64,000 bases of DNA, from assembly GCA_016928575.1 (NCBI GenBank), contig JAFGKK010000068.1, positions 26,319-90,318 on the forward strand, written 5' to 3'. Below are positions 2,517 through 18,909 of this stretch, one piece after another. Position 1 is the first letter of the stretch; every line of letters starts with the position of its first letter. Source of the DNA: Anaerolineales bacterium (GTDB lineage Bacteria > Chloroflexota > Anaerolineae > Anaerolineales > RBG-16-64-43). The notes under the pieces are model-generated. The model saw only the letters and a program-made list of their open reading frames with translations. It did no database searches and was not told where the DNA came from. Made by a program: the position numbers and the translations under genes.

Positions 2517-3200
2517 TTAATCCACAAAACGGTACTTTACCAGCGCCCAAACGGCCGCGAAGGCGTCGGCCAGCCCGATCTTTTTCCCTTCGTTGTACTC
2601 CCGCGGATTGAAGGAGATCGGAATTTCAAAAAGCCGCGCCTTGCGCTTCAGGACCTTGGCGGTGATTTCGGGTTCGAAGTCGAACCGGTTAGCGCGTAAT
2701 GGAATGCTTTTCAGCAGATCGGCTTTAAACACCTTGTATCCGGTTTCCATATCCGAGAGGATGCTGTTGTAGAGAACATTGGTCGCCAGGGTCAGCAAGT
2801 GGTTGGCCACCATGTGCCAGAACATCGTCACCCGGCGTTTGGCTCCGAGGAAGCGGGATCCGTACACCACGTCCGCCACTCCACATTCGATCGGCTCCAG
2901 CAGGGCGGGGTATTCCGCCGGGTTGTATTCAAGGTCGGCATCCTGGACCAGGATCACGTCGCCGGAGGCTTTGCGGAATCCCGTCCGCAGCGCCGCGCCC
3001 TTTCCCTGATTGCAATCATGGAATACGGCGACGACCTCGGGGGGAGAGTCGAGCGAACGGAGGATCTCGCGGGTTCCGTCGGTCGAGCCGTCGTCGACCA
3101 ACAGTATCTCGGATGCCAAGCCGGTGGCCTTTACCCTGCGGACGATCTCGGCCGCCGTTTCCTTCTCGTTGAAGACGGGGATCACCACGCTTAATTTCAT
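2517..3200 (-). CDS. GT2 glycosyltransferase, polyprenyl/dolichyl-phosphate sugar (mannose/glucose) synthase-like
   Basis: N-terminus [25 protein letters not shown] and the QDADLEY (DxD) motif are present. The protein is 227 aa and soluble, Ppm1/DPM1-like in size. Confidence 0.85.
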
Positions 3201-3229
3201 CGAGGGAAAGTATACCGGGACTGACGGTG

Positions 3230-3258
3230 TTGGGCAACCCGCGAGCTCGTGCTATAAT
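3230..3258 (+). promoter_or_regulatory. Candidate sigma70-type promoter for the + strand array (TTGGGC -17 nt- TGcTATAAT)
   Basis: Perfect TATAAT at 3253-3258 with a TG extension at 3250-3251, and TTGGGC at 3230-3235. It lies in the divergent gap between the GT2 gene and the ATPase gene. Confidence 0.45.
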
Positions 3259-3309
3259 TCGTTGGAATCAGGATCCAGCCCCCCGGTCTTCTGCATCTGG
3301 AGGTGTCCT

Positions 3310-4644
3310 TTGCCCACTCCTGCATCGATCCCCCGCGCCGCCGAATCGGGCCCCCGTTTCACACCGCCCGTCATCACCCGCGTGGAAGATACCGGCCTCT
3401 CTTCGCTGTGGCTGCAGGACCTGGCTTTAAAAATTTTCTACTTCCGCGGATACCTCACCGGCTTCCGGGTGGCCGACCTCATGGCGCTGCCCTTTACCGG
3501 GATCGTGGACCAGATCGTCGAAACCCTGAAGCGGGAAAAACTGATCGAGGTGAAATCCCAAACCGGGATCGGCGACGGCGCCTACCAGTACGCCATTACC
3601 GGTCAGGGGATGATTCGCGCGCGGGAGGCGCTGGATCGCAGCCAGTATGCGGGAGCGGCGCCCGTTCCGCTCACCGACTACAATGCGGCGATTCGCAAAC
3701 AAGCCCGGGCGCGCCCGGCCGTCAACGCCCGCGTGATGCATCAATGCCTGCACGCCCTGACGCTTTCGGAGACGACATTTTCCCGGATCGGTCCGGCGGT
3801 GAACTCCGGAACGTCGATCTTCCTGTACGGACCTCCCGGAAACGGAAAAACCACTATGGCCCGGGCGATCGGCGACCTGATTCTTCAAGAAGAAATGTAC
3901 ATTCCCTACGCCCTGGACGTGGAAGGACATGTCGTCAAGTTATACGATTCCGTGAACCACCAATTGGTTCCCGAAGACGATCCTTCCTCCAGCCAGGCCA
4001 CCAGCACCATCCAGCGCAGCGCCAGCAAACGGGATCCGCGCTGGGTGCGGATCCGGCGGCCGTTCATCATGGTCGGAGGCGAATTAACCCTGGCCGGATT
4101 GGATCTGGTGTTCAACGACGTGCAGAAATACTACGAGGCGCCGTTTCAGGTGAAGGCCAACGGCGGCATCCTGCTGATCGACGACTTCGGCCGCCAGCAG
4201 GTGCGTCCGCGGGATCTGTTGAACCGCTGGATCGTGCCCCTCGAAAATCGGATCGACTATCTGACCCTCCACACCGGACAAAAAATCGAAATCCCCTTCG
4301 ACGTGATGGTGGTGTTCTCGACCAACCTTCCGCCGAAGGATCTGGTGGATGAAGCCTTCCTGCGCCGCCTGCGCCACAAGATCGAAGTGGTGGATCCGAC
4401 CTTTGACGAGTACCGCGAAATCTTCAAACGGGTTGCGGAATCGAAGGGCGTGGCTTACAACGAACAGGCGCTGGCGTACCTGATCCAGGAATACTATATC
4501 AAGACCAACCGCAAACCGCGGGCTTCGCATCCGCGCGATTTGTGCGATCAGATCCTCGACATCGGCCGCTATATGGGCACGGAACCCACCATGACCAAGG
4601 ACCTGATCGACCGGGCCGCGCAATCTTACTTCGTCGAGCTCTAA
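3310..4644 (+). CDS. AAA+ ATPase with a possible N-terminal winged-helix-like domain, function unknown
   Basis: Walker A is LYGPPGNGKTT, Walker B is GILLIDDFG, and there is an arginine-rich FLRRLRHKIEV region. I prefer the in-frame TTG at 3310, preceded by GGAGG at 3299-3303. The track ATG at 3010 would overlap the GT2 gene antisense by 190 nt. Confidence 0.75.
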   Translation: MPTPASIPRAAESGPRFTPPVITRVEDTGLSSLWLQDLALKIFYFRGYLTGFRVADLMALPFTGIVDQIVETLKREKLIEVKSQTGIGDGAYQYAITGQGMIRAREALDRSQYAGAAPVPLTDYNAAIRKQARARPAVNARVMHQCLHALTLSETTFSRIGPAVNSGTSIFLYGPPGNGKTTMARAIGDLILQEEMYIPYALDVEGHVVKLYDSVNHQLVPEDDPSSSQATSTIQRSASKRDPRWVRIRRPFIMVGGELTLAGLDLVFNDVQKYYEAPFQVKANGGILLIDDFGRQQVRPRDLLNRWIVPLENRIDYLTLHTGQKIEIPFDVMVVFSTNLPPKDLVDEAFLRRLRHKIEVVDPTFDEYREIFKRVAESKGVAYNEQALAYLIQEYYIKTNRKPRASHPRDLCDQILDIGRYMGTEPTMTKDLIDRAAQSYFVEL

Positions 4645-4837: not shown

Positions 4838-6481
4838 ATGGATCGGACAACCGGCCTTTGGACCTCCGGCAAGCGGGCCGTCATCGTCGGCCTGATCGCC
4901 GCAGCGCTCCTGATCCTCACCGCCGACGCCATCGGACTCACCTGGGATGAGCCGGCCTACATCACGGCCTCGGAATCCTACACAGGCTGGTTCCACCGGC
5001 TGGTGTTCGGTCCGCACGGCGTATTGAACCGGAAGGTCATCGACGGTCATTGGACGGCGAACTCCGAGCATCCGCCCCTTAACAAGGTTTTCTCCGGGCT
5101 GGTGTGGGGGGTGACGCACACCCTCGTCGACGATCTGCTGGCGCACCGGTTGGCCAACATGCTGTTGTTCGGGCTGATGGCCGCGCTTTTGTATCACATG
5201 ATCGCGGACGAGTTGGGGGAAGCGGCGGCGATCGGGTCCGTGGCCGCCCTCATGACCTTGCCGAGGCTCTTCTTCCACGCCCACTTGGCGGCGCTCGACG
5301 TTCCCGCCGCCGGGATGATCGTGGTCGTCACCTACGTATTCTGGCGCACGAAGGAAAGCGCCCGTTGGCGCTATACGGTCCTGCTGGGCGCGGTGTGGGG
5401 CTTGGCCCTCTCCACCAAAATCAACACAGCCTTCGTGCTGCCGACCCTTTTCCTGTGGACGTTGGTTTTCCGGCGGAAACCCTACCTGATCCTGCGTTTG
5501 GTGCTGGCCGGTATCCTCGCCGCGCCCGTCTTCGTCGGGTTATGGCCGTGGCTGTATTACGACACCTTTGAGCGAATTAAGGATTTTGTGGCTTTCCAGA
5601 CGGTAAGCCACTGGAAGATACCGCAGTATTATCTCGGCCGGCTGTTCATGCCGCCCCCGTGGCATTTCCCCTTCGTGATGACCTTGGCCGTCGTTCCCTT
5701 GGGTACGCTGATCCTGGCCGGCCTCGGAATCCTGCGCGGAATATTCCGACGGCGGGACCGGGCGTTCTGCAGTCTGTTGCTCCTAAACGCGTTGGTGCCG
5801 ATGCTCGTGGTGGCCGCCGGACGGACCATGGTTTACGACAACGAACGGTTGATCATGCCCGCCTTTCCGTTTCTGGCCGCACTGGCCGGCGCCGGATTCT
5901 CCTGGCTGGCGCGCATGCTGCGGTCGATGTTCCAACGCGTCCGGGTTCCCGTTCTGGGAACCGCGCTGTCCGCCGCGGCGGCCCTGATCGTGCTTGCCCC
6001 GGCCGTGCACGGCATCACCTCCTACTTTCCGCACCTGCTTTCGTATTATTCCGAAGCCGTGGGCGGATTGCCCGGAGCGGCGAAAATGGGATTGGAGACC
6101 ACGTATTGGTGTGAAAGTTACCGCGAGGCGATCGATTTCATCAACGCCAACGCCAAACCCGGGGATTCGGTGTGGGTCGAATCCTCGAGCTACGAAGTAT
6201 TGGTGTACTACCAGTTGCACGGCGTCCTGCGGCAGGATGTCGTCATCGCCGTTCCGGAAGGCTTCGGAACGGAATCGATCTTCGGCGGCGGAGTCACCTC
6301 CCTTAAGCCCGCGGTCGCCTTCGACGAAGCGACATTCGTGATCCTCCAATACCGCCAATCCGGCCTTTACCAACCGGACAATTCCGAGACCGAGCTGCTG
6401 GAATGGGCCTCCGGCCGGCAGCCGGCCTACCGTTTGGAGCGGGAGGGGGTTCCCGTCATGGATGTGTATTGGAGTTACTGA
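4838..6481 (+). CDS. Polytopic membrane glycosyltransferase, GT-C fold (GT39/PMT_2/ArnT-like)
   Basis: There are at least 10 predicted hydrophobic helices. An acidic first-loop motif LTWDEPAYI follows TM1. A soluble C-terminal domain of about 140 aa is present. Confidence 0.75.
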   Translation: MDRTTGLWTSGKRAVIVGLIAAALLILTADAIGLTWDEPAYITASESYTGWFHRLVFGPHGVLNRKVIDGHWTANSEHPPLNKVFSGLVWGVTHTLVDDLLAHRLANMLLFGLMAALLYHMIADELGEAAAIGSVAALMTLPRLFFHAHLAALDVPAAGMIVVVTYVFWRTKESARWRYTVLLGAVWGLALSTKINTAFVLPTLFLWTLVFRRKPYLILRLVLAGILAAPVFVGLWPWLYYDTFERIKDFVAFQTVSHWKIPQYYLGRLFMPPPWHFPFVMTLAVVPLGTLILAGLGILRGIFRRRDRAFCSLLLLNALVPMLVVAAGRTMVYDNERLIMPAFPFLAALAGAGFSWLARMLRSMFQRVRVPVLGTALSAAAALIVLAPAVHGITSYFPHLLSYYSEAVGGLPGAAKMGLETTYWCESYREAIDFINANAKPGDSVWVESSSYEVLVYYQLHGVLRQDVVIAVPEGFGTESIFGGGVTSLKPAVAFDEATFVILQYRQSGLYQPDNSETELLEWASGRQPAYRLEREGVPVMDVYWSY

Positions 6482-6623: not shown

Positions 6624-9600
6624 ATGACGGAAATCGCACTCCGCGCGTATAACCAGGAGATCAAGGACCTTATCGATCACGGCCATTTCGATGAGGCGAT
6701 CGCGCATTGCCAGCACGTCTTGGAATCCTTCCCACGCCATATCGAAACCTACCGGCTCTTGGGAAAGGCGTTCTTGGAACAAGGCCGCCACGGCGATGCT
6801 GCGGACGTGTTCCAGCGGGTGCTTTCCGCCATACCCGAAGACTGGCTTTCGCACGTGGCGATGGCCATCGTCCGGGAGGACGAAAGCAACCTCGATATGG
6901 CGATCTGGCATATGGAGCGCGCCTACGAGGTGAATCCGTCCAATCCGACGGTTCAGCAGGAGGTGCGCAGGCTGCGCGGCCGGCGGGACGGGGTGGAACC
7001 GCCGAAACTCCGCCTTACCCGTTCGGCGCTGGCGCGGATGTACATCAAAGGGGGGTTGTACGGGCAGGCGATCGCGGAGATCCGCGGCGCTCTGTCAGAG
7101 GATCCGGACCGGCCGGATTTGCAGGTCCTGCTGGCATCCGCACTATACGATTCCGGTGCAATCCAGGAGGCCGCCGACCTCTGCAACACCCTTTTGCAGA
7201 AGCTCCCCTATTGCCTGGAGGCCAACCGGATACTGGGCTTGGTCCTGCTGGCGACGGACAAAGCGGAGGACGCGGAAAAATTATTCCAGCGGATAGAATC
7301 GCTGGATCCCCATATCGATATCGAGATCTTGAAAAAAGACAAGCGGATTGCTGAGCATCCCGGGCAAATGGTCTCTCTCTCCCGTCTGGAGTATGAGGGG
7401 CAGGAAAAGACCGTCCGCACAAAGCAGCAGCCGTCTTGGGCGTCGTCTTTGGGATTGAAGATCGAAGAACCGCAGCAAAAACAAGCCATTCCGGATTGGC
7501 TGGCGGCGGCCTCCCAGTCTTCAGCCGCATCCCCGTCCACTCCCAAACCCGCCGAGTCTTCGGCGGAATCCGCGGCAGCGATTCCCTCCTGGCTGGAGCA
7601 AGCCTCGGCTGCTGTCACGCCTCCCGTTCCGTCGGGTCCTTCGATTGGCACTCCGGCGGAGCCGCCCATCCCGATCGCCCGAACTGCGACGGGCGAACTT
7701 CCGGATTGGATTCAGAAGCAGGCGATTCCAGCCGAAACGCCGCCGGAGAGGACGTCCAGCCCGCTTCCGGATTGGTTGTCGGCGGCGGCTGCGCCGCCTG
7801 AAACGGCCTCCCCCGTTTCCGCAACGGCAACCGGTGATGCGCTTCCGGATTGGCTGGCCGCCGCCGCGGCGGCGCCGATGGCGGACCAGCCGGTCGAACC
7901 CAAGGCGCCCGCAGGAACGGCGGAACAGGCCACCGGCAACGCTTTACCGGATTGGATCAAAACGTCCTCCCTGACGTCGGAGCCGCCGAAGGAAAAAATT
8001 TCCGATATTCCGGATTGGCTATCTACTCCGCCTCCACCCGCGGTGGATGCTCTGCCGCCCACATCTTTGCCGGAGTGGTCCAGGCCGGAAACGAAAACCG
8101 GCCCGTTGGAAATCGAATCCGGAAATATCCCCGATTGGCTGAGTTCATCGCAACCCACCAGCTCCGGGGTCGCGCCGGAACAGGAATGGATGAAAGAGGC
8201 ACCCAAACCGCCCTCCGACGCCATGCCGGAATGGATGAAGGGAGTATCCCCGGCCGAACCTCAGGCCTCCGTCCAACCCTCCGGCGAAGACGTTCCGGAT
8301 TGGCTGCGGGAGACGACAGCCCCGGCCGCGAAACCGGTGGAACTGGTTCCCGAATGGATGCGCGGCGAAGCCTCGGCACCCGCCGCCAGCCCGCCCAAAA
8401 AATCGGCCGGCAAAATGCCTCCGCCGGAAGAAGATATTCCAGAATGGATGAAACCGGAACCGTCCGAGGTGCCGGTTCTCCCGCCGTCGAAACCGATCTT
8501 CGGTGCAAAAACCGAACCGCCGGCAGAGGCGCCTTCGGCGCCGCCTTCCGCCCCAACGCCAGCGGCATCCGCTCCGGAAGTAGACTTGCCGGATTGGATG
8601 AAAGCCGCTTCATCCCCGGAGCCCGCCGCCGAAAAACCGCGGGAGGCCGAACCCGAGGCGGCACCCGCGGAGGAAATTCCAGATTGGTTGAAAGGCGCCG
8701 CCCCATCGGGGATCCAACCCGCCGCGATGCCGGTGGAAGGCGCGGAATCTCCGGCGGCCGCAGAGGAACGCCCTCCGGCGGAACCCGTTCCGGATGTCGA
8801 TATGCCCGACTGGTTGAAAGCGGTCCCGGCACGGCCGCCGGCCCCCGTGGAAGCAAAACCGTCCGTCGAAGCTCCGGTTCAAACGGCTCCTGCTGTGGAA
8901 ATCCCGGATTGGTTGAAGGGCGGGCCCTCAGCAGCCGCCGCGGAATCGGGCCAGCCGAAAGCGCCCGCCGAAGTCCCGGCAGGAGCCGAACCGGAGGTGG
9001 AACTGCCGGATTGGCTCAGAGATGCTTCGTCCGTACCGGCTTCGGGAGCCGTTGCGGCAACACCCGTGGTAACACCTTCCTCACCCCCGTCAGAGGCTGT
9101 TGCCTCTGCGGAGGCCCCTGAGACTCCTTTCATTTCGCAAAAATCCGCTCCTCCCAAACCGCCACAAACCCTGCCGGGACAAGCGGCCGAGGAACCGGGT
9201 CCAGCCCATGCAACGCCGACGGCCAAAGACGGAATAGACCTGCCGGATTGGCTGGTCACCCAACTGCAGGGAAAACCGAATGCCGCGGAAGCCGCTCCCG
9301 CCGCGGCGAAAGCCGAGGCGCCGTTGCCCGATTGGTTGAGGCCGGCGAATTCCGGAGCGGCGGCTCCCGTCGTGGACTGGGAAAAAGCCGCCAGCCAGCC
9401 GTTGCCTGCGGCGCCGGTCGATGCGACGAGGCCGGCAAAACCAGCGGAGGAAAAACCCGCGGGCGGGGCGGCGCAAGTCCCCGGATGGCTGGATAAATCC
9501 AAACCGACTGGAAGCGATACGGTGGCCCGATGGCTGGACCGGCGGTTGAAAACCTCCACGTTGAGTTCTTTGGATGAAGCGGTATTGAAAAGCGGTGTGA

Positions 9601-10685
9601 AGCCTTCCACAGCACCGCCGCCGGGCCGGACCGGCACCGGAACACAGCTGCCGACTTGGCTGGATGCCCAAAAACCGGGCGCCTCCGACACCGTCGTCCG
9701 TTGGATGGACAAGCGGGAGACCGGGTCGCTGAGGAAGACACCAACCGCGACCTTTTCATCCGTCTCTAAAGCTGCAGCCATTGCGAGAGGGGAATCCCTC
9801 CCTCCGTCTGCGGAGACGCCGGCCAAAAGCGAAGCACCGGCGCCGGTATCCGGGTCGGAGGATACCGTCACCTCAAAGAGGTCACCTGTCGAAAGCACGC
9901 CGGTCCAGGCGCAACCGGCCGCCGCTGTTCCATTCCCTGCGCCGGTTCCGCCGAAACCGCCGGCGGAACCGAGAATTCCCAAACCGGCCCAGGCCGAGGC
10001 GACTGTGTCTACGGCCGGCACGGCCGCCGGCGAAGATGATGAGGGGGAATTCGTTCCGCCGCCGGAATGGCTGCAGAAAGCCTTGGGAAGCGCCGTGGCG
10101 GACGTGCCGCCCATTCCAAAGAAACAAACCGGCAACCTCAAACCCGGGACCGTATCCCCGGTTTCCGCGTCCACTCCGAAGAGCATGTCCCGCCCCGCGG
10201 CGCCGCCGGAGAAATCCGTTGCCGCGGTTTCCCCGCCACCCGCCGAAGTGACTCGCAAGACCGTTCCGGCCGAAGAATCGGAGCCCGCCGCCGTCGCCAG
10301 ACCCGGCGCTTGGGTTCCGTTGGCCCCGCAGGCGGCAACAGCTCCGACTGCACCCGAACCGGCGCCTGCGGCCGCCAAACCCGAAAAAGCCGCAAAGAAA
10401 TCCTCCCGAAAGAAGGCTCGGAAAATTACCGCCGTGGAAGCGGAAGCGATCATCCGCGAAGCCCGCATCTATCTGGAAACCGATTTGCAGAAAGCATCCG
10501 AGGCGTATCAGCAAGTGATCGAGGATCCCGAACGCGCAGAGATCGTCGCGGGAGACCTGACGACCTATCTGGAGCAGGATCCGGCGTCGCCCCAGCTCTG
10601 GAACCTTCTGGGAGATGCTTGCAGCCGCGCCGGCCGCCTGCAAGACGCCTACCGGGCTTATGCGGAAGCCTTGCGCCGGATGTAG
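6624..10685 (+). CDS. Giant TPR-flanked low-complexity protein with repeated PDWL-type motifs
   Basis: 1353-aa ORF with a GAAGGA RBS. The N-terminal ~235 aa and C-terminal ~90 aa are TPR-like helical repeats. The centre is Pro/Ala/Ser/Glu-rich with recurring [ILMV]P[DE]W[LIM]. No signal peptide or TM helix is visible. Confidence 0.85.
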   Translation: MTEIALRAYNQEIKDLIDHGHFDEAIAHCQHVLESFPRHIETYRLLGKAFLEQGRHGDAADVFQRVLSAIPEDWLSHVAMAIVREDESNLDMAIWHMERAYEVNPSNPTVQQEVRRLRGRRDGVEPPKLRLTRSALARMYIKGGLYGQAIAEIRGALSEDPDRPDLQVLLASALYDSGAIQEAADLCNTLLQKLPYCLEANRILGLVLLATDKAEDAEKLFQRIESLDPHIDIEILKKDKRIAEHPGQMVSLSRLEYEGQEKTVRTKQQPSWASSLGLKIEEPQQKQAIPDWLAAASQSSAASPSTPKPAESSAESAAAIPSWLEQASAAVTPPVPSGPSIGTPAEPPIPIARTATGELPDWIQKQAIPAETPPERTSSPLPDWLSAAAAPPETASPVSATATGDALPDWLAAAAAAPMADQPVEPKAPAGTAEQATGNALPDWIKTSSLTSEPPKEKISDIPDWLSTPPPPAVDALPPTSLPEWSRPETKTGPLEIESGNIPDWLSSSQPTSSGVAPEQEWMKEAPKPPSDAMPEWMKGVSPAEPQASVQPSGEDVPDWLRETTAPAAKPVELVPEWMRGEASAPAASPPKKSAGKMPPPEEDIPEWMKPEPSEVPVLPPSKPIFGAKTEPPAEAPSAPPSAPTPAASAPEVDLPDWMKAASSPEPAAEKPREAEPEAAPAEEIPDWLKGAAPSGIQPAAMPVEGAESPAAAEERPPAEPVPDVDMPDWLKAVPARPPAPVEAKPSVEAPVQTAPAVEIPDWLKGGPSAAAAESGQPKAPAEVPAGAEPEVELPDWLRDASSVPASGAVAATPVVTPSSPPSEAVASAEAPETPFISQKSAPPKPPQTLPGQAAEEPGPAHATPTAKDGIDLPDWLVTQLQGKPNAAEAAPAAAKAEAPLPDWLRPANSGAAAPVVDWEKAASQPLPAAPVDATRPAKPAEEKPAGGAAQVPGWLDKSKPTGSDTVARWLDRRLKTSTLSSLDEAVLKSGVKPSTAPPPGRTGTGTQLPTWLDAQKPGASDTVVRWMDKRETGSLRKTPTATFSSVSKAAAIARGESLPPSAETPAKSEAPAPVSGSEDTVTSKRSPVESTPVQAQPAAAVPFPAPVPPKPPAEPRIPKPAQAEATVSTAGTAAGEDDEGEFVPPPEWLQKALGSAVADVPPIPKKQTGNLKPGTVSPVSASTPKSMSRPAAPPEKSVAAVSPPPAEVTRKTVPAEESEPAAVARPGAWVPLAPQAATAPTAPEPAPAAAKPEKAAKKSSRKKARKITAVEAEAIIREARIYLETDLQKASEAYQQVIEDPERAEIVAGDLTTYLEQDPASPQLWNLLGDACSRAGRLQDAYRAYAEALRRM
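7488..10075 (+). repeat. In-frame array of about 27 short [ILMV]P[DE]W[LIM] motifs (18 strict, about 9 degenerate) at irregular 20-60 aa spacing
   Basis: Examples are IPDWL, LPDWI, LPDWL, MPEWM, VPDWL, IPEWM, LPDWM and MPDWL. At the DNA level the 9-mer CCGGATTGG recurs at least ten times (for example near 7491, 7701, 7766, 7846, 7939, 8011, 8295, 8590, 9006, 9243). Confidence 0.9.
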
Positions 10686-10765
10686 CCGCGCTGAATTGCT
10701 GATTGCGCTCCGCCGCCCGCCAATTCTCCGATTTCGCCCCCGCTCGATATCGAATTGAGGTAGCC

Positions 10766-12208
10766 GTGAACATACGCCGCCTGGTGATTACCGTCGTTTT
10801 TCTAGGTCTGCTGTATATGGCCGCCCGGCCGATGATCGACACGGACACCTGGTGGCACCTGCGGACCGGGCAATGGATCCTGGAAAACCGGGCTCTGCCG
10901 CAAGTGGATCGGTTCTCCTTTTCACGGGACGGCGAACCGTGGTACTACCCGGGCTGGCTGGCGGAAATACTCATGGCCAAGGTGCACGCGCTGGGCGGCT
11001 TGGCGGGGTTGAATCTCCTGTTCGGCGGCGTACTGGTTTTGGCTTTTCTCGTCATCCATCTCACCATGGAAGGGAATCCCTTCCTGCGCGGCGCGGTTTT
11101 TATCCTGGCCGCGGGCGCATCCGAAATTTATTGGAATGCGCGTCCGCAACTGTTCACATTTCTGTTCACCGCCTGCTTTTACCTTTGCCTGCGGCGGTAT
11201 CTTTGGGGCAGACGGAACGCACTATGGGTTCTGCCCCTGATCATGGTCCTGTGGGTCAATATCCACGCCGGGTTTGCAGTTGGGTTCATTCTTTTGCTTG
11301 TTGCGGTTTTCGGGCAGGGGTTGCATTTCCTGGCGCAAGGCGCCTCCCGGCCTCCCGAGACGGGCCGGAAGCTGGCCTGGCTGGTCGGAACGCTTGCGGC
11401 GTGCCTGGCTGCGGCCGCCGTCAATCCGCATGGAATAACCATCCTCGCCTACCCGTTTAAGACCGTATCGATCCAATTCCTACAGAGATTCATCCAGGAA
11501 TGGCAGTCGCCCGATTTCCATTACCTGGAAGCCCAGCTGTTCCTGATCCTCTTTTTTGCGGCGTGGGCCGCGGTCGTTTTCTCCCCCGAGAAGATGGATG
11601 TCCGCGATTTTTGTTTCCTCGCGTTTATCGGCTATATGGGTTTTCTGGCCTGGCGGAACACCAATTTGCTTTCCATCGTCGCTCCGGCCGTCATCATGAA
11701 ATACGCCCAGCCCATCGTGGACCGTCTTTTCCCAGGCTGGGATCCGGACCATGCCGTATCGAAACTGCAGTCCGCCGTCCACATCGCGGCGGCCGCCTGC
11801 CTGACCGTCGCGGTTCTGTTTCTCGGAGCCGCATCGCTTTCACCGGAATCCATCCAAACGGCCATCCGCCGGCAGGTGCCGGTTGACGCCGTCTCCTATT
11901 TGGCGGAAAATCCGGTGCAAGGCAGGATGTTCAATTCCTACAACTTCGGTTCTTATCTGTTGTGGTATCTGCCCGGAATCCCGGTGTTTGTGGACGGCAG
12001 GACGGACCTCTACGATGACGAAATCCTGAGTCAATACCTCACGGTCATTCATGCGCGGGAAGGCTGGCGCGAGATCATGGAACAATGGCGGATTGAAGTA
12101 GTGTTTGTCGAAGTCACCGCCCCGATCCGGCAGGTTCTACTTTCTGAGGGATGGACGGTTTTGTATCAGGACGATAAAGCCGTCATCCTCGTCTTGCCCG
12201 GAGGCTGA
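10766..12208 (+). CDS. Polytopic membrane protein, putative GT-C-like glycosyltransferase
   Basis: GTG start at 10766 after a GAGG RBS (the track start at 10703 is less likely). Multiple TM helices are present. The first-loop acidic motif is MIDTDTWWHLRTG. The C-terminal domain is soluble. Confidence 0.6.
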   Translation: MNIRRLVITVVFLGLLYMAARPMIDTDTWWHLRTGQWILENRALPQVDRFSFSRDGEPWYYPGWLAEILMAKVHALGGLAGLNLLFGGVLVLAFLVIHLTMEGNPFLRGAVFILAAGASEIYWNARPQLFTFLFTACFYLCLRRYLWGRRNALWVLPLIMVLWVNIHAGFAVGFILLLVAVFGQGLHFLAQGASRPPETGRKLAWLVGTLAACLAAAAVNPHGITILAYPFKTVSIQFLQRFIQEWQSPDFHYLEAQLFLILFFAAWAAVVFSPEKMDVRDFCFLAFIGYMGFLAWRNTNLLSIVAPAVIMKYAQPIVDRLFPGWDPDHAVSKLQSAVHIAAAACLTVAVLFLGAASLSPESIQTAIRRQVPVDAVSYLAENPVQGRMFNSYNFGSYLLWYLPGIPVFVDGRTDLYDDEILSQYLTVIHAREGWREIMEQWRIEVVFVEVTAPIRQVLLSEGWTVLYQDDKAVILVLPGG

Positions 12209-12220: not shown

Positions 12221-13840
12221 ATGACCCCCCAAACCCGATCGGCCTCCGCGTGGCGCGGGTTCCTCTTGCTCCTGCTTCTGCTGACGGCTTCGGCGGCGGC
12301 GTGGATGGAAGCCTTCTTCATCCGCCGGCCCGGAACGATGGATGCCTGCTACTACTACAGCGGCGGCGTGAACCTCGTCCGCGGAACGGGTTGGCAGGAG
12401 TTTTTTTTATGGAACTACTTGGATGAGGAGGCTGAGATTCCTTACCCCGCCTACCAATACTGGATGCCGCTCGCTTCATTCGTCGCGGCGGCGGGGATGG
12501 GATTGTTGGGGGAGGGCTTCCGGCAAGCCCAGGCGCCGTTGTTGCTTCTCGCCGTATCCTTCCCCTGGCTGGCCTTCCTCACGGGCAAGCAGTTGACCGG
12601 TTCTTTCCGGGTCGGCATCCTCGCCGGTTTTTTCGCGATCGGTTCGGGTTTCTACACCGTCTACTGGTTGAATACCGAGAGTTTTCTGATTTATGCGTGG
12701 ATTGGAGGTTTGACCCTCCTGCTGGCCGCCCGGTCAGGCCGATCGCAAACCCGCCGGCGTGTTTTTCTGATCGGCGCACTGTGCGGATTGGCGCATCTTG
12801 CCCGAGCGGACGGCATCCTCTTGTTGGGAGTGGCCGCCATCCTAATCCTGGCAGACGGTTGCTTTTCCTACCCGGCCCGCGCCGGCCGGACCTGTCTTCT
12901 AGCGGCCGGGTATTTCCTCACCAGCGGAATCTGGTATCTCCGCAACCTGCGGGTATGGGGAAGCCCGTTTCCTCCCGGCACGGGAAAGGCGTTTTTCCTC
13001 AACGAATACAACGACCTTTTCCGATACCCCTCCGCCGATCTCACCCTGGAGCGATTCCTCTCCGCCGGCTTGGAGGATATGCTGGCCGCGCGCTGGGAGG
13101 CGTTTCAGGCCAACCTGACCACGACGGTTTTCGTACTCGGCTTGGTTTTTTTGTTCCCGCTAATGGCCTGGGGTGCGTATCTCCTCAGGCGCAAATCCGA
13201 AATCCGGACCGCTGCCGGTTATCTGCTGATTCTTTTTTTCCTGATGACCGCGGTATATCCGTTCCAAGGGTCGCGCGGCGGTTTTCTCCATTCATCTGCG
13301 GCGCTGATTCCGGCGGCGGCGGCGGCGGCGGCGTTGGGTTTGGAGGACGTTGTCGAACGGCTGATTCGCTGGAGGAAATGGGAAGCGGTTTCCGCACGCG
13401 CTTTCCTGGGAGCCGGCATGGCCGGTTTGGCGCTTTCTGCCAGCGCATTCATCTATTACAGCCGCGTGGTCGGCTCGGCGTCCGGAGGGTCCGCTTGGGA
13501 TGGATTGAACGTCCAATACGTAATGGGTGTCTCCCGCTTGGAACCGGTGCCGCCCGGAACCATCCGGTTCATGGTCAACAATCCGCCGTGCTTCTATGTT
13601 CGGACGGGGTATCCGGGCCTACCGGTGCCGGCAGGGGATTCCACAATGCTTCTCGAAGCCGCCGACCGATATGGAGTCCGTTTTGTCGTGTTGGACGGAA
13701 ACGCTCCGGAAGGACTGCAGTCCCTGTACCGGGGTACGGACTCGCATCCGCGGCTGAGGCGGATTTTCAGCTTGGAGTACGACGGCATGGAGTATGTGTG
13801 GTTTGAAGTGATCCCCGCCGCTCCGGGAACGGATTCATGA
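12221..13840 (+). CDS. Polytopic membrane protein, GT-C/GT39-like glycosyltransferase
   Basis: More than 10 hydrophobic helices. The first loop reads PGTMDACYYYSGG. The C-terminal domain is soluble. The gene starts 13 nt after the previous gene. Confidence 0.6.
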   Translation: MTPQTRSASAWRGFLLLLLLLTASAAAWMEAFFIRRPGTMDACYYYSGGVNLVRGTGWQEFFLWNYLDEEAEIPYPAYQYWMPLASFVAAAGMGLLGEGFRQAQAPLLLLAVSFPWLAFLTGKQLTGSFRVGILAGFFAIGSGFYTVYWLNTESFLIYAWIGGLTLLLAARSGRSQTRRRVFLIGALCGLAHLARADGILLLGVAAILILADGCFSYPARAGRTCLLAAGYFLTSGIWYLRNLRVWGSPFPPGTGKAFFLNEYNDLFRYPSADLTLERFLSAGLEDMLAARWEAFQANLTTTVFVLGLVFLFPLMAWGAYLLRRKSEIRTAAGYLLILFFLMTAVYPFQGSRGGFLHSSAALIPAAAAAAALGLEDVVERLIRWRKWEAVSARAFLGAGMAGLALSASAFIYYSRVVGSASGGSAWDGLNVQYVMGVSRLEPVPPGTIRFMVNNPPCFYVRTGYPGLPVPAGDSTMLLEAADRYGVRFVVLDGNAPEGLQSLYRGTDSHPRLRRIFSLEYDGMEYVWFEVIPAAPGTDS

Positions 13841-15324
13841 AGCGCCTTTTGCGCGTCGCGGCTTGGGGATGCCTCTGGTTGGCCGGGCCGGCCTTGTTCC
13901 TAGTTCGGGAACAAGCCGGCGGGGTATCCGGATTTCCGCTGGATGACGCGTGGATTCACCAAACCTATGCCCGTTCCCTGGCCGGAGGCTTGGGGTGGTC
14001 CTACGCCGGCGGGCCGCAGTCCGCAGGATCCACTTCGCCTTTGTGGACTCTTTTGCAGGTTCCCGCATTTTGGTTTTCCCTGCCGCCCAAAGTCTGGAGC
14101 AGTGTGTTGGGCATCGTTCTGCTGGCCGCCAACGCCGGACTGATCGGGCTGTGGATCCGACGAATCGACCGCGGAGCCTCCCGTTTGGCGTTTTTTTTCT
14201 GCTTGGCGGAATGGCACCTGGTATGGGCGGCGCTGTCCGGAATGGAAACCGTCCTGTTTTGCACCTGGATTTCCGCAATCCTTTTCCTTTTCTTTCCGGT
14301 GCATGATGACCGGGGCGGACAATCCCAATTCCCGCTGGCGGCTGCGGCGATGGGTGCGCTTTCGGGCATGGGCGTATGGATTCGGCCGGAGGCGCTTCTG
14401 CTTACCGGACTGGCAGGGCTCGCCGCGGCGATCCAATGGCGGCCGGTTTCGGCCGGGAAGGCGGCGGGTTACCTGGCGGGCGCGGCGATGCCGATTTTTC
14501 TATACGCGGCCTTGGAGTATTCCCTGAACGGACGCATGCTGCCGAACACCTATTTCGTAAAAACCGTGGAATATACATCTTTGACCTCGACCACGATCCT
14601 GATCCGTTTGCTGCAGCCGTGGATCCCGCTGCTCGCGGGGCCGATCGCCGTCCTGGCATTCTTCCTGCCGAGCGGGGCGCTGGGAGTGCTCCGCGGGCGC
14701 GGGGCGGTGTGGGGGTTGCCTTTGCTCTGGGCGGTTGCCCATCTCGCCCTGTATGCCGTGCAGCTTCCGGCGACCTACCAGCACGGGCGCTATTTCATCC
14801 CCGTCCTTCCGGTCCTGATCGCGTACGGCACAGTTGGAGGCCACCGCTTATGGAAAAAACACTCCTCCGCGGGAGCCGGACGGATTGCCGTTCGCACGCT
14901 GTCGATCAGCGCGGCGGGACTGGCGGCCGCCTTCTTATGGATCGGCGCCGGACAATTCGCGGAAGACGTCCGCCTGATCGAATCCGAAATGGTCGCGGCA
15001 TCGGTCTGGATCCGCGACCACATGCCGCCGGAAACGGTGGTGGCCGCCCACGATATCGGCGCGCTGGGATTCTTCGGCGGCAGGAGAATCCTGGACTTGG
15101 GGGGGGTGACCGACCTGGGCGCCGTGAACCTTCTGGCGGGGAAGATCAGCCTCCGCGAATACCTGGAACGGGGGGAGGCCGATCTGCTGATGACCATGCC
15201 GGATTTTTACCCCGGTGAATTGGACTCCTGCACGCCGTTGGAGGGGTTTTCCGGCGGAATTCCCGCGGCGGAATCAAGCCGGCGCACTCGGATTTACCTC
15301 TGGCGGGAGGCTTGCGCATGGTGA
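13837..15324 (+). CDS. Polytopic membrane protein, GT-C-like glycosyltransferase (DD first-loop motif)
   Basis: Its start overlaps the upstream stop by 4 nt (ATGA). The first loop reads FPLDDAWIHQTYARS. Multiple TM helices are followed by a soluble C-terminal domain. Confidence 0.6.
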   Translation: MKRLLRVAAWGCLWLAGPALFLVREQAGGVSGFPLDDAWIHQTYARSLAGGLGWSYAGGPQSAGSTSPLWTLLQVPAFWFSLPPKVWSSVLGIVLLAANAGLIGLWIRRIDRGASRLAFFFCLAEWHLVWAALSGMETVLFCTWISAILFLFFPVHDDRGGQSQFPLAAAAMGALSGMGVWIRPEALLLTGLAGLAAAIQWRPVSAGKAAGYLAGAAMPIFLYAALEYSLNGRMLPNTYFVKTVEYTSLTSTTILIRLLQPWIPLLAGPIAVLAFFLPSGALGVLRGRGAVWGLPLLWAVAHLALYAVQLPATYQHGRYFIPVLPVLIAYGTVGGHRLWKKHSSAGAGRIAVRTLSISAAGLAAAFLWIGAGQFAEDVRLIESEMVAASVWIRDHMPPETVVAAHDIGALGFFGGRRILDLGGVTDLGAVNLLAGKISLREYLERGEADLLMTMPDFYPGELDSCTPLEGFSGGIPAAESSRRTRIYLWREACAW

Positions 15325-15406
15325 GGCGCAGAGCGGAGGGGCCGCGGATTCGCCCGCATGTTTGCCAAGCCACAGGGGTAATGCTATACTTTCGTGCGGG
15401 AGTTCC

Positions 15407-16132
15407 ATGACCGATATTAGAATCGTACTCATCGACGATCATCCGCTTTACCGCGAGGGCGTGAAGAAAGCCATCACGTCTTTTTCGGATTTGACCATCG
15501 TGGGCGAAGCCGGAAACGGACACGACGGGCTGGACTTGCTCCGCAACACCCGTCCGGACGTTGCGATCCTCGACGTCAATCTCCCGGATGAAAACGGCCT
15601 GCAGATCGCCCGGCGGGCGGGATCCGAGATGCCCGACATAAAAATCGTCCTCCTGACGGGCTACACGGATTGCGAGCAGCCGCTGCACGCCTTTCGAGCG
15701 GGCGCCCGGGCGTATTGCTCCAAGGACATCGAACATGAACAGCTGGCGGAAATCATCCGGATCGTCGCCTCGGGAAAATGGGTGTACGAGGGCCGGATCA
15801 TGGACGCCAAGGAAAAGCAGGCCTGGTTGGACGATCAGATGGCCGGGCTCAAGACGGAAACCGGTTCCGAGGATCTTTTCGCCCCCTTGACCCAACGGGA
15901 ATCCGAGATCCTCAACCTGGTGGCACGCGGATTGACCAACAAACAAATCGGATACCTGCTGGGAATCAGCGAGCAAACGGTTAAAAACCACCTCACTTCG
16001 CTGCTGCGGAAGATCGGCGCCAGCGACCGGACCCAAGCCGTGGTCTACGCGCTAAAGCACGGGTGGATCCGCCTCCCGGAAGGAAACGAAACATCGGAAC
16101 CATCCTCCCTACCGTTCTCCAAAGAGGAATGA
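15407..16132 (+). CDS. Response regulator, NarL/LuxR (DegU-like) family
   Basis: ATG at 15407 gives MTDIRIVLIDDHPLYREG. The receiver Asp lies in VAILDVNLPDENG. The C-terminal LuxR HTH reads LTQRESEILNLVARGLTNKQIG. The track start at 15215 is an upstream extension. Confidence 0.85.
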   Translation: MTDIRIVLIDDHPLYREGVKKAITSFSDLTIVGEAGNGHDGLDLLRNTRPDVAILDVNLPDENGLQIARRAGSEMPDIKIVLLTGYTDCEQPLHAFRAGARAYCSKDIEHEQLAEIIRIVASGKWVYEGRIMDAKEKQAWLDDQMAGLKTETGSEDLFAPLTQRESEILNLVARGLTNKQIGYLLGISEQTVKNHLTSLLRKIGASDRTQAVVYALKHGWIRLPEGNETSEPSSLPFSKEE

Positions 16133-16144
16133 TCAGGGCCGCCC

Positions 16145-17518: not shown

Positions 17519-17560
17519 GGAAAAAACCAGATCCATTTTCTAGGAAAGGAGGTGAAAGCC

Positions 17561-17707: not shown

Positions 17708-17725
17708 CGACCGATAGCAGACCGG

Positions 17726-17762
17726 AAAATTGAGCCCCGTTTTTCGGGGCTCAATTTATTTC
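17726..17762 (+). terminator. Rho-independent terminator after flp
   Basis: A 10-bp stem (TTGAGCCCCG / CGGGGCTCAA, 17730-17739 and 17745-17754) with a TTTTT loop, followed by a T-rich tail. Confidence 0.7.
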
Positions 17763-17813
17763 GGAGTAATATTATCCGCAATCAAAAAATATACTGTTTT
17801 TTTACGCCTCTCC

Positions 17814-18903: not shown

Positions 18904-18909
18904 CTGCGA

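What the first reader, a model, noticed from the sequence alone, without database searches (positions are those of the whole stretch)
7488..10075. About 27 copies of a short [ILMV]P[DE]W[LIM] motif in an ~860-aa disordered tract
I count 18 strict copies (IPDWL, LPDWI, LPDWL, MPEWM, VPDWL, VPEWM, IPEWM, LPDWM, MPDWL and others). There are about 9 degenerate ones (IPSWL, LPEWS, EQEWM, VVDWE, VPGWL, VARWL, LPTWL, VVRWM, PPEWL). Nearly every Trp in the central region lies inside a motif. The spacers are 20-60 aa of Pro/Ala/Ser/Glu/Lys with no other conservation. Only the 5-residue core, and often the 9-mer CCGGATTGG, is maintained, so selection acts on the motif rather than on a repeat unit. Near the end a longer bipartite unit is duplicated: VPGWLDKSKPTGSDTVARWLDRR and LPTWLDAQKPGASDTVVRWMDKRE. 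This looks like a multivalent short-linear-motif array for recruiting many copies of one partner, a design better known from eukaryotic endocytic adaptors. I know of no described function for a PDWL array in bacteria.
Basis: seen in the sequence. Interest (0 to 1): 0.8.

Follow-up and report, generated by a model that had tools for sequence, protein, structure and literature searches.

The report
Conserved tryptophan-motif array in Anaerolineae scaffold
A 1353-residue cytoplasmic protein found across the Anaerolineae carries 27 conserved copies of a short tryptophan motif in a floppy acidic middle, and an unrelated membrane protein of the same bacteria carries the same motif array, so it is most likely a portable docking signal for a partner not yet identified.

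Summary
ORF 6624-10685 (+) has 18 strict and 9 degenerate [ILMV]P[DE]W[LIM] motifs, against 0.008 expected in shuffles. They lie in a low-confidence Pro/Ala/Ser/Glu tract between a 7-repeat N-terminal TPR domain and a small C-terminal TPR module.

- All 120 best homologues keep the array, and at least 521 species genomes encode a relative; every one named is Anaerolineae or Chloroflexota.
- In close orthologues the motif cores are 81% identical and the spacers 37%.
- There is no DNA-level repeat unit.

A motif profile found only 252 proteins among 1.84 billion. About a third of the top hits are an unrelated Anaerolineae membrane protein: Zn-ribbon, array, two TM segments. It sits in a conserved operon with a PF13941 ATPase.

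The array is therefore a portable short-linear-motif module, most likely a multivalent docking platform. The partner is unknown. The extended motif has the same register as the FtsZ C-terminal tail (IPxFLR), which is a testable lead only. The window's AAA+, GT-C and Tad neighbours are lineage-specific and are not supported as partners.

The parts
6624..10685 (+). Whole CDS, 1353 aa: N-terminal TPR, disordered motif array, basic patch, C-terminal TPR. No signal peptide or TM segment.
6624..7397 (+). N-terminal TPR domain, aa 1-258: 14 helices forming 7 TPRs, pLDDT above 90. This is the best-conserved part of the family, with signatures WHMERA[FY]E and GRRDGxEPP.
7488..10073 (+). Disordered Pro/Ala/Ser/Glu tract holding the 27 Trp-centred motifs.
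7488..7502 (+). IPDWL, strict; W292 conserved in 16/16 orthologues
7581..7595 (+). IPSWL, degenerate; W323 16/16
7698..7712 (+). LPDWI, strict; W362 16/16
7764..7778 (+). LPDWL, strict; W384 16/16
7842..7856 (+). LPDWL, strict; W410 present in only 5/16 orthologues, so a lineage-specific copy
7944..7958 (+). LPDWI, strict; W444 16/16
8007..8021 (+). IPDWL, strict; W465 16/16
8067..8081 (+). LPEWS, degenerate; W485 15/16
8127..8141 (+). IPDWL, strict; W505 16/16
8178..8192 (+). EQEWM, degenerate (EPEWL in most orthologues); W522 16/16
8223..8237 (+). MPEWM, strict; W537 16/16
8292..8306 (+). VPDWL, strict; W560 15/16
8346..8360 (+). VPEWM, strict; W578 16/16
8436..8450 (+). IPEWM, strict; W608 16/16
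8586..8600 (+). LPDWM, strict; W658 14/16
8676..8690 (+). IPDWL, strict; W688 14/16
8802..8816 (+). MPDWL, strict; W730 14/16
8901..8915 (+). IPDWL, strict; W763 16/16
9003..9017 (+). LPDWL, strict; W797 13/16
9240..9254 (+). LPDWL, strict; W876 14/16
9324..9338 (+). LPDWL, strict; W904 16/16
9369..9383 (+). VVDWE, degenerate; W919 16/16
9477..9545 (+). Bipartite unit 1, VPGWLDKSKPTGSDTVARWLDRR (aa 952-974). VARWL is 16/16 conserved. A helix is predicted over TVARWLDRRLKTS at pLDDT about 60-70.
9648..9719 (+). Bipartite unit 2, LPTWLDAQKPGASDTVVRWMDKRE (aa 1009-1032). Both Trp are 16/16 conserved. A helix is predicted over DTVVRWMDKRE.
10059..10073 (+). PPEWL, degenerate; W1149 16/16; short predicted helix PEWLQKAL. 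It corresponds to the PP[DE]W[VL] tail of the AWLE unit seen in distant relatives.
10377..10424 (+). Lys/Arg-rich patch KPEKAAKKSSRKKARK (aa 1252-1267). It occupies the position where 30 of 120 relatives carry a ComEA-like HHH_3 domain.
10431..10682 (+). C-terminal helical TPR module, aa 1270-1353: 5 helices, pLDDT 97, conserved W-x-LGDA...Y..A signature.

Best explanation
The tract is the disordered centre of a cytoplasmic scaffold protein that is conserved across the class Anaerolineae.

1. Embedded in an acidic, Pro/Ala-rich spacer are 27 copies of a Trp-centred short linear motif. The family consensus is [ED][ED]-[LIV]-P-[DE]-W-[LM]-[KRQ]-x-hydrophobic, with weak helical propensity.
2. Each copy is a separate, individually conserved docking site (shown).
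3. Together they form a multivalent, high-avidity platform that binds many copies, or a polymer, of one cytoplasmic reader protein (inferred).
4. The N-terminal 7-TPR domain, the small C-terminal TPR module and the basic patch position or cross-link the platform (inferred). In a quarter of relatives an HHH_3 DNA-binding domain replaces the basic patch, so the anchor may be DNA or another anionic surface.
5. The motif array is a portable module (shown). An unrelated Anaerolineae membrane protein carries the same array on its cytoplasmic side.
For: Motif excess:
- 18 strict motifs against 0.008 in shuffles.

Conservation:
- All 120 best homologues have 3-27 strict motifs and 7-35 P.W[LIMFV] motifs.
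- At least 521 species genomes encode a relative, and all those named are Anaerolineae or Chloroflexota.
- Motif cores are 81% identical and spacers 37% in 16 orthologues.
- Of 2267 Trp beyond aa 260 in distant homologues, 1542 have Pro at -2.
- The motif aromatic residue is W 1612: F 22: Y 0.
- There is no DNA repeat unit.

Specificity:
- The motif is confined to this gene in 757,000 aa of six-frame ORFs from 80 loci, with one exception.
- Only 252 of 1.84 billion representative proteins match a motif profile.

Portability:
- About 50 of the 142 new top hits are Zn-ribbon, array, TM, a domain of about 230 aa, TM proteins.
- They show the same extended logo, from 643 motifs.
- Two are named Anaerolineae or Anaerolineales.
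- 5 of 5 lie in a conserved operon.

Structure:
- Both TPR modules are modelled with confidence; the tract is not.
- HHH_3 is found in 30/120 relatives at a fixed position. Those without it have a more basic patch there: maximum K+R per 20 aa of 6.0 against 3.4.
Against: - No binding partner was identified or tested.
- AlphaFold2 did not dock any motif confidently.
- Gene neighbourhood gives no partner. ndk lies downstream in 43 of 66 loci, but it is a housekeeping gene.
- A sticker-and-spacer polymer that needs no specific reader would give the same conservation pattern.
- Co-occurrence of the two array families in one genome was not shown.
- The DNA-anchor role of the basic patch is inferred from position and composition only.
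Confidence: 0.6

Rival explanations
1. FtsZ-tail mimic. Each motif imitates the conserved C-terminal peptide of FtsZ and binds the proteins that read that peptide: the actin-fold protein FtsA, SepF, or a related actin-fold ATPase such as the PF13941 protein of the second family's operon. The array would then cluster or sequester division or cytoskeletal anchors, possibly near DNA.
For: - The register is the same. The family logo is [ED][ED]-[LIV]-P-[DE]-W-L-[KQR]. All 120 FtsZ retrieved end in [ED][DE]x[LM][DE]-[IV]-P-x-F-L-R.
- The E. coli tail is DYLDIPAFLRKQAD, with I374 and L378 critical. ZipA, FtsA, MinC, ZapD, ClpX and SlmA read it (PMC4117426).
- The cyanobacterial and plant FtsZ2 core is IPDFL (PMC11285052), one residue away from IPDWL.
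- One conserved family element is literally IPDFLRxAGWG; 71/120 proteins have the phi-P-x-[WF]-phi..AGW element, and 19 of the 22 Phe motifs lie in it.
- The second array family is co-operonic with a PF13941 protein. Its actin/ASKHA fold is from my own knowledge.
Against: - Phe is invariant in the 120 FtsZ tails, whereas the arrays use Trp 1612:22.
- No Anaerolineae FtsZ, FtsA or SepF could be fetched, and the FtsZ search returned mainly Bacillota.
- No binding test was possible.
- No division gene lies near the gene.
Confidence: 0.17
2. Self-reading network or condensate. The protein's own TPR modules bind the Trp motifs in trans, or the Trp and Leu stickers associate on their own. The protein would then form a gel or condensate rather than recruiting a separate client.
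For: - TPR concave grooves do read Trp-centred acidic motifs, as in kinesin light chain with W-acidic peptides (PMC6214655).
- The protein has TPR modules at both ends and many ligand-like sites.
- Trp is almost the only aromatic residue in the tract: 29 W against 5 F+Y.
Against: - AlphaFold2 gave no confident cis docking. Motif pLDDT was about 50-56 in the N-terminal fragment and 51-70 in the C-terminal one.
- The Zn-ribbon/2TM family carries the same array without any TPR. The motif therefore does not need an in-chain TPR, although the TPR family could still read it in trans.
Confidence: 0.15
3. Interface or membrane anchor. The Trp-Leu pairs insert into the membrane interface or another hydrophobic surface, and the array acts as a multivalent tether to that surface.
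For: - Trp prefers membrane interfaces (own knowledge).
- Short helices are predicted at the motifs.
Against: - The flanks and spacers are acidic. Net charge per residue runs from -0.05 to -0.30, which disfavours anionic bacterial membranes.
- The second family is already membrane-anchored by two TM segments.
Confidence: 0.05
4. The tract is a substrate or partner of locus-encoded functions: Trp or Ser/Thr glycosylation by the flanking GT-C (PMT_2-like) membrane proteins, the upstream AAA+ ATPase, or the Tad pilus machinery.
For: In the window and its closest relative the gene is flanked by AAA+, PMT_2-like and further membrane-protein genes, with a Tad locus beyond them.
Against: - The AAA+ and upstream PMT_2 genes are present in only 4 of 80 related loci; the two downstream membrane-protein genes match in 9 and 8.
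- The 80 loci reach only about 2 kb past the gene, so the CpaF probe (0 hits) could not detect a Tad cluster there. It is absent from all five distant 8-10 kb flanks, which have ndk, rpoD, PyNP or H+-PPase instead.
- The protein has no signal peptide or TM segment, whereas GT-C enzymes act outside the cytoplasm (own knowledge).
Confidence: 0.02
5. Chance or compositional artefact, or a recent tandem duplication with no function.
For: The tract is low-complexity, and CCG and GAT are common codons.
Against: - Shuffles give 0.008 motifs.
- There is no DNA repeat unit.
- Motifs are conserved position by position while the spacers diverge.
- Arrays are present across at least 521 species.
Confidence: 0.01

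Closest known systems
HubP/FimV polar hub proteins (Vibrio, Shewanella, Pseudomonas)
   Same: Large bacterial scaffolds with a long, unstructured, acidic cytoplasmic region. In HubP this region is made of imperfect acidic repeats. They end in a C-terminal TPR module that binds client proteins (PMC12918733).
   Different: - HubP/FimV have a periplasmic LysM domain and a TM anchor; this protein has neither.
- HubP repeats are units of about 46 aa (own knowledge), not a conserved 7-residue Trp motif in drifting spacers.
- No FimV-family model matched.
- Different phylum.
FtsZ C-terminal conserved peptide ([DE]-[IV]-P-x-F-L-[RK])
   Same: Same residue classes in the same register: acidic, aliphatic, Pro, x, aromatic, Leu/Met, basic (PMC4117426, PMC11285052). 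The peptide is embedded in a disordered linker and forms a short helix on binding (own knowledge).
   Different: - There is one copy at the end of a tubulin-like GTPase, against 27 internal copies and no FtsZ domain here.
- Phe is invariant in FtsZ tails; Trp is nearly invariant here.
PEX5 (eukaryotic peroxisomal import receptor)
   Same: A disordered region with multiple Trp-containing pentapeptide motifs, joined to a TPR domain in one chain. This rests on my own knowledge. The PEX5 TPR domain is among the generic structural matches.
   Different: - The PEX5 motif is WxxxF/Y, in about 6-8 copies, and binds PEX14 and PEX13.
- There is no sequence relation beyond generic TPR, and the lineage is eukaryotic.
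Kinesin light chain TPR with W-acidic cargo motifs
   Same: A TPR groove reads a Trp flanked by acidic residues within a disordered adaptor, with low micromolar affinity and partly electrostatic recognition (PMC6214655).
   Different: - The W-acidic core is [LM]-[DE]-W-[DE]. Here Trp is followed by Leu/Met and Lys/Arg and preceded by Pro-Asp.
- Adaptors have one or two copies.
- Binding to this protein's TPR modules is untested.
Eukaryotic multivalent motif scaffolds: GW182 GW repeats, Eps15/epsin DPW and NPF motifs, FG nucleoporins (own knowledge)
   Same: Dozens of minimal aromatic motifs in a disordered chain. Selection acts on the motif, not the spacer, and avidity comes from multivalency.
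   Different: - Different motifs and different readers.
- I found no bacterial cytoplasmic counterpart with this motif in the literature searched.

Membership tests
Tetratricopeptide-repeat proteins (Pfam TPR clan) | Helix-turn-helix 34-residue repeats detected by TPR models above the curated cut-off | tested here: met
   TPR_19, TPR_2, TPR_16 and TPR_14 score above cut-off at aa 13-230 and 1314-1351. AlphaFold2 gives 14 plus 5 helices at pLDDT above 90. Generic TPR matches appear in the PDB.
FtsZ C-terminal tail motif | Consensus [DE]-[IV]-P-x-[FY]-[LM]-[RK] | tested here: inconclusive
   The register and residue classes match. The aromatic residue is Trp, W:F = 1612:22, whereas Phe is 100% in 120 FtsZ tails.
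FtsZ C-terminal tail motif | A single copy at the C-terminal end of a tubulin/FtsZ GTPase domain and linker | tested here: not met
   No Tubulin or FtsZ_C domain is present; there are 27 internal copies.
FtsZ C-terminal tail motif | Binds FtsA, SepF or ZipA-type anchors | not testable with these tools
   No complex prediction or binding assay was available. No Anaerolineae FtsZ or FtsA could be retrieved.
HubP/FimV hub proteins | N-terminal periplasmic LysM domain and a TM segment | tested here: not met
   No LysM hit and no TM-like segment.
HubP/FimV hub proteins | Long acidic unstructured cytoplasmic region with repeats | tested here: met
   Net charge per residue runs from -0.05 in the window protein to -0.30 in relatives. 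pLDDT is 40-56 in fragment aa 1-420 and about 39-70 in aa 940-1353. What repeats, however, is a short motif and not a unit.
HubP/FimV hub proteins | C-terminal FimV-type TPR domain | tested here: inconclusive
   A small C-terminal TPR module exists, but no FimV model was hit in Pfam or NCBIfam, and the fold search gave only generic TPR matches.
PEX5-like receptors | WxxxF/Y pentapeptide motifs | tested here: not met
   Position +4 after Trp is Leu/Ala/Met/Ile/Val, not Phe/Tyr.
Kinesin-1 W-acidic ligands | [LM]-[DE]-W-[DE] core | tested here: not met
   Position -1 is Asp/Glu, but +1 is Leu/Met (73% and 9%), not acidic.
ComEA-like HHH_3 proteins | PF12836 helix-hairpin-helix domain | tested here: not met
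   Absent in the window protein. Present in 30/120 relatives, about 95-115 aa from the C-terminus in 27 of them.
Tandem-repeat proteins (unit duplication) | A repeat unit detectable at DNA or protein level beyond the motif | tested here: not met
   TRF found only a 25-nt microrepeat. Direct repeats extend 15-39 nt around the core at 60-82% identity.
Uncharacterised Anaerolineae TPR-array family (the homologues found here) | N-terminal TPR domain with WHMERA[FY]E and GRRDGxEPP, a Trp-motif array, and a C-terminal TPR with W-x-LGDA | tested here: met
   The window protein is identical to P0001. It shares 30-70% identity with the listed members, and all three parts align.

The most novel reading that the evidence does not exclude
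phi-P-D-W-L is a class-wide short-linear-motif code in Anaerolineae, read by an actin-fold ATPase (FtsA and/or the PF13941 protein) in the way FtsA reads the FtsZ tail. Two scaffolds display it in arrays of 10-50 copies. One is soluble, TPR-capped and tethered by HHH_3 or a basic patch. The other is a Zn-ribbon/2TM membrane protein encoded in an eight-gene operon. Together they would organise a cytoskeletal or division apparatus in these filamentous bacteria.
Probability: 0.15. Interest if true: 0.9.

Novelty: new variant of a known kind. Interest (0 to 1): 0.7.

Why it matters
Arrays of minimal motifs in disordered proteins are a well-known design in eukaryotic cells, for example in endocytic adaptors, GW182, PEX5 and nucleoporins. 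They are rarely documented for bacterial cytoplasmic proteins.

Here a 7-residue Trp motif is kept in 10-50 copies per protein across at least 521 species of a major, poorly studied class of filamentous environmental bacteria. Two unrelated scaffolds share it. That implies a dedicated reader protein and an uncharacterised cellular organising system.

The question is directly testable:
- The motif is short enough for peptide pull-downs and AlphaFold-Multimer screens.
- Cultured hosts exist (Longilinea, Anaerolinea).
- The resemblance to the FtsZ tail gives a concrete first hypothesis.

Tried and rejected
1. Locus partners. The AAA+ and upstream PMT_2 neighbourhood occurs in only 4 of 80 loci (the two downstream membrane genes in 9 and 8). 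The Tad cluster lay beyond the reach of those loci and is absent from the five distant flanks examined. Rejected as general partners.
2. Trp C-glycosylation by the flanking GT-C proteins. Rejected: there is no signal peptide and the synteny is not conserved.
3. In-cis docking of motifs on the N- or C-terminal TPR by AlphaFold2. There was no confident docking; contacts cannot be inspected with these tools.
4. Fold and sequence searches of both TPR modules against the PDB gave only generic TPR matches. NCBIfam had nothing above cut-off.
5. Literature searches for PDWL, LPDWL, IPDWL and DUF6754 found nothing relevant.
6. Fetching an Anaerolineae FtsZ to compare tails:
   - An X-masked FtsZ query with an IPDWL tail returned mainly Bacillota FtsZ, none with a Trp tail.
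7. A search with the 40-aa AWLE unit returned short proteins; those inspected look like frameshift fragments of the same family.
8. An HMM of the AWLE unit does not match the window's bipartite units, so I do not equate the two.
9. One alignment of 71 long hits failed internally.
10. P0363, which looked like a third architecture with HHH_5, is a split copy of the TPR family next to ndk. P0422 (He_PIG/RTX) is a false positive of the motif profile.

Full report
**1. What is there**

The finding lies inside one ORF, window 6624-10685 on the + strand, 1353 aa. Pfam finds TPR repeats at aa 13-230 and again at aa 1314-1351, and nothing in between.

Translation shows 32 Trp. Of these, 28 lie between aa 270 and 1160.
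- 18 sit in strict [ILMV]P[DE]W[LIM] pentapeptides.
- One sits in QPSWA, just after the TPR domain.

Twenty thousand shuffles of the central 890 residues gave a mean of 0.008 strict motifs and never more than 2.

The logo shows that the motif is longer than five residues. It has acidic residues at -5/-4, Leu/Ile/Val at -3, Pro, Asp/Glu, Trp, Leu/Met, then Lys/Arg.

At DNA level CCGGATTGG occurs 11 times. However, Tandem Repeats Finder finds no array, and direct repeats extend only 15-39 nt around the core at 60-82% identity.

One oddity is that Asp in the motif is encoded by GAT in 14 of 15 cases, against 28 of 51 elsewhere in the gene (Fisher p = 0.006).

**2. Structure**

AlphaFold2 was run with family alignments.
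- aa 1-258 is a confident 14-helix TPR solenoid of 7 repeats, with pLDDT above 90.
- aa 1270-1353 is a confident five-helix TPR-like module, with pLDDT 97.
- The tract between them has pLDDT about 40-56 in the N-terminal fragment and about 39-70 in the C-terminal one. Only one- to three-turn helices appear at some Trp sites, the longest over the two ARWL and VRWM elements.

No motif is docked with confidence on either TPR module. Fold and sequence searches against the PDB return only generic peptide-binding TPRs: consensus TPR, OGT, PEX5, APC subunits, Hip and SGT. NCBIfam has no model above its cut-off. There is no signal peptide or hydrophobic segment, so I take the protein to be cytoplasmic.

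**3. Is the motif conserved?

Yes.
- More than 2,153 homologues were found. Every named one is Anaerolineales, Anaerolineae or Chloroflexota, including the cultured Longilinea arvoryzae.
- Each of the 120 best hits carries 3-27 strict motifs and 7-35 looser ones. LPDWL, IPDWL and VPDWL are by far the commonest Trp contexts.
All 80 listed are Chloroflexota MAGs, nearly all labelled Anaerolineae or Anaerolineales.
- In 16 orthologues of 40-70% identity, the motif core columns are 81% identical to the window protein and the spacer columns 37%. Twenty of the 27 Trp are conserved in all 16.
- In distant homologues the positions no longer align, yet the logo from 1,260 sites is [ED][ED]-[LIV]-P-[DE]-W-L-[KQR]-x-[LAMIV]. 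Of 2,267 Trp beyond aa 260, 1,542 have Pro at -2.
- The aromatic position is W 1612: F 22: Y 0.
- Within 80 loci, about 757,000 residues of six-frame ORFs, the motif occurs outside this gene or its split fragments only once.

Selection therefore acts on the motif itself.

**4. Family architecture**

Members share three parts: the N-terminal TPR domain (signatures WHMERA[FY]E and GRRDGxEPP), the array, and the terminal TPR module.

Thirty of 120 also have a ComEA-like HHH_3 domain, lying about 95-115 residues before the C-terminus in 27 of them. Members without it, including the window protein, have a more basic stretch in the same place. The maximum K+R per 20 aa is 6.0 against 3.4, and here the stretch is KPEKAAKKSSRKKARK. 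I read this as an interchangeable module that binds nucleic acid or another anionic surface. That is an inference.

Distant members also carry one to three copies of a 40-residue unit, DDAxAWLExLAAxQGAxxEELxxxPExRxExPP[DE]WV. It is present in 74 of the 89 more distant members (P0032-P0120) and in none of the 31 closest relatives of the window protein.

The spacers are acidic throughout. Net charge per residue runs from -0.05 in this clade to -0.30 in others. Trp is almost the only aromatic residue in the window protein's tract.

**5. Gene neighbourhood**

The window order is RecJ, GT2, AAA+, PMT_2-like, this gene, three membrane proteins, a response regulator, a histidine kinase, an Flp pilin and Tad genes. 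The closest relative repeats this order.

Among 80 species loci, only 4 match the AAA+ and upstream PMT_2 genes; the two downstream membrane-protein genes match in 9 and 8. The CpaF probe matched none, but those loci reach only about 2 kb past the gene, so this says little about Tad; the five distant 8-10 kb flanks lack it. By contrast, ndk lies within 500 nt downstream on the same strand in 43 of the 66 loci with a complete gene. A pyrimidine-nucleoside phosphorylase gene, H+-PPase or rpoD lies nearby in many of them.

The conserved neighbour, ndk, is a housekeeping gene that suggests no mechanism.

**6. Is the array found anywhere else?**

I built a 31-column profile from 20 window motifs and ran it against 1.84 billion representative proteins. 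Only 252 reach E <= 1e-3 and 50 reach 1e-10.

Of the 142 new top hits, about 54 are the TPR family and 38 are fragments or false positives. About 50 belong to a different architecture:
- an N-terminal zinc ribbon or double zinc ribbon;
- 9-23 motifs;
- a TM segment;
- a conserved domain of about 230 residues;
- a C-terminal TM segment.

Their logo, from 643 motifs, is the same: [ED][ED]-[LVI]-P-D-W-L, with W:F:Y = 669:3:0. Two are named Anaerolineae or Anaerolineales bacterium. A sortase gene beside one of them is 64-69% identical to one in an Anaerolineales MAG that carries the TPR family.

In 5 of 5 contigs the gene lies in the same operon:
- a protein of about 85 aa;
- DUF6754;
- a membrane protein of about 210 aa;
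- the array protein;
- a membrane protein of about 220 aa;
- a PF13941 "MutL/GlmL" protein of about 590 aa (E = 2.6e-61 over the full model);
- a protein of about 350 aa;
- in four of the five contigs, a further membrane-anchored protein of about 180-240 aa.

No paper in the library mentions DUF6754.

A motif array shared by two unrelated scaffolds in the same class is the strongest evidence here that it is a portable ligand for a common reader.

**7. How it most likely works**

Shown:
- many individually conserved copies of a short Trp motif in a disordered acidic chain;
- folded TPR caps;
- portability of the array.

Inferred:
- each motif is a low-affinity docking site that becomes a short helix on binding;
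- the array gives avidity for an oligomeric or polymeric reader, or gathers many copies of it;
- the TPR modules and the basic patch or HHH_3 place the platform.

I put 0.6 on this general model.

The best lead is the resemblance to the FtsZ C-terminal tail.
- All 120 FtsZ proteins I retrieved end in [ED][DE]x[LM][DE]-[IV]-P-x-F-L-R.
- The E. coli tail is DYLDIPAFLRKQAD. It is read by FtsA, ZipA, MinC, ZapD, ClpX and SlmA, and I374 and L378 are critical (PMC4117426).
- The cyanobacterial and plant core is IPDFL (PMC11285052).
- The family motif has the same classes in the same register. One conserved family element is literally IPDFLRxAGWG.
- FtsA is an actin-fold protein. PF13941 proteins are also actin/ASKHA-fold by my own knowledge, which would link both array families to that kind of reader.

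Against this lead, FtsZ tails use Phe invariably and the arrays use Trp almost invariably. I could not obtain any Anaerolineae FtsZ, FtsA or SepF, and I could not run a binding test. I give it 0.17.

A second possibility, at 0.15, is that the protein's own TPRs read the motif. Kinesin light chain TPR with W-acidic peptides is a precedent (PMC6214655). This would produce a network or condensate. AlphaFold2 gave it no support, and the second family lacks TPRs, although reading in trans remains possible.

Membrane insertion (0.05), locus-encoded partners or glycosylation (0.02) and artefact (0.01) are unlikely, for the reasons given under the rivals.

**8. Comparison with known systems**

It works like a hub or multivalent-motif scaffold. 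The nearest bacterial analogues are HubP/FimV, which have an acidic unstructured cytoplasmic region, with repeats in HubP, and a C-terminal TPR client-binding domain (PMC12918733). This protein lacks their LysM domain and TM anchor, and its repeats are motifs rather than units.

PEX5 (Trp motifs plus TPR), the kinesin W-acidic adaptors, GW182 and the endocytic adaptors are functional analogies only. Their defining motifs are not met.

The protein is a member of the TPR superfamily and of an uncharacterised, Anaerolineae-wide family. It is not a member of any described functional family that I could test.

**9. Verdict**

The feature is real, strongly conserved and widespread, and I found no description of it. 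The design principle is known, so I class it as a new variant of a known kind. The motif, the two scaffolds and the implied reader appear to be new. Interest 0.7.

Noticed in passing
L087:8001-11612, L088:8001-11465, L089:8001-11195, L090:6630-11129, L092:3439-6879 and their flanks: A second, unrelated Anaerolineae protein family carries the same motif array: Zn-ribbon, 9-23 PDWL motifs, TM, a domain of about 230 aa, TM. It lies in a conserved operon in 5/5 contigs, together with DUF6754, two small membrane proteins, a PF13941 (GlmL/MutL-like) ATPase, a protein of about 350 aa and, in four of the five, a further membrane-anchored protein. No literature on DUF6754 was found.
   Followed up: partly
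P0047 aa ~590-630, 750-790, 930-970; P0086 aa ~520-700: Distant family members carry 1-3 copies of a 40-aa unit, DDAxAWLExLAAxQGAxxEELxxxPExRxExPP[DE]WV. It is in 74 of the 89 more distant members (P0032-P0120) and in none of the 31 closest relatives of the window protein. A search with it returned short proteins; those inspected look like frameshift fragments of the same family.
   Followed up: partly
window 10377-10424, and the equivalent position in relatives: A ComEA-like HHH_3 domain lies about 95-115 aa before the C-terminus in 27 of the 30 (of 120) relatives that have one. Where it is absent, as here, the same position is Lys/Arg-rich. This suggests interchangeable modules that bind DNA or an anionic surface.
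   Followed up: partly
L016-L086, downstream of the family gene: ndk lies within 500 nt downstream on the same strand in 43 of 66 loci. Pyrimidine-nucleoside phosphorylase (30 loci), H+-PPase (21) or rpoD (11) also lies in the locus, upstream in those inspected. The window clade has moved the gene into a GT-C/Tad neighbourhood.
   Followed up: yes
P0086 aa 322-342, and 71 of 120 family proteins: A longer conserved element follows the first motifs: D-x-IPD[WF][LM][RK]xAGWGxS. It holds 19 of the 22 Phe variants and reads IPDFLR, like an FtsZ tail. The window protein has IPSWLEQASAA there instead.
   Followed up: partly
window 7488-9338 (motif Asp codons): Asp within the motif is GAT in 14 of 15 cases, against 28 of 51 elsewhere in the gene (Fisher p = 0.006). 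This produces the recurrent CCGGATTGG. The cause is unknown; it could be a codon-pair preference before TGG or shared ancestry of the copies.
   Followed up: no
window 17552-23536: A complete Tad/Flp pilus locus: a 51-aa Flp pilin (17552-17707), CpaB-like (17878-18903), a response-regulator-CpaE-like ATPase (18910-20148), CpaF (20188-21588) and TadB/TadC (21458-23536). A LuxR-type response regulator and a HisKA_3 kinase precede it (15215-17203).
   Followed up: partly
window 4838-6481, 10703-12208, 12221-13840, 13837-15324: Four large polytopic membrane proteins flank the gene. Two give PMT_2 (GT-C glycosyltransferase) hits, one of them below Pfam's cut-off. One is weakly LA_3751/LA_3752-like and one has no family. 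A GT2 gene (2517-3200, - strand) and an AAA+ gene (3010-4644) lie upstream.
   Followed up: partly
L005:8001-13981, L043, L052, L066, L069, L086, L091: In several long-read MAGs the family gene is split into two or more ORFs. These are probably homopolymer frameshift errors in the GC-rich repetitive tract rather than real gene fission.
   Followed up: no
window 60296-62341 (-) and 44940-47318 (-): A 681-aa WD40 beta-propeller protein, and a topoisomerase I with an N-terminal DUF5679 zinc-ribbon-like extension. Neither is related to the finding.
   Followed up: no
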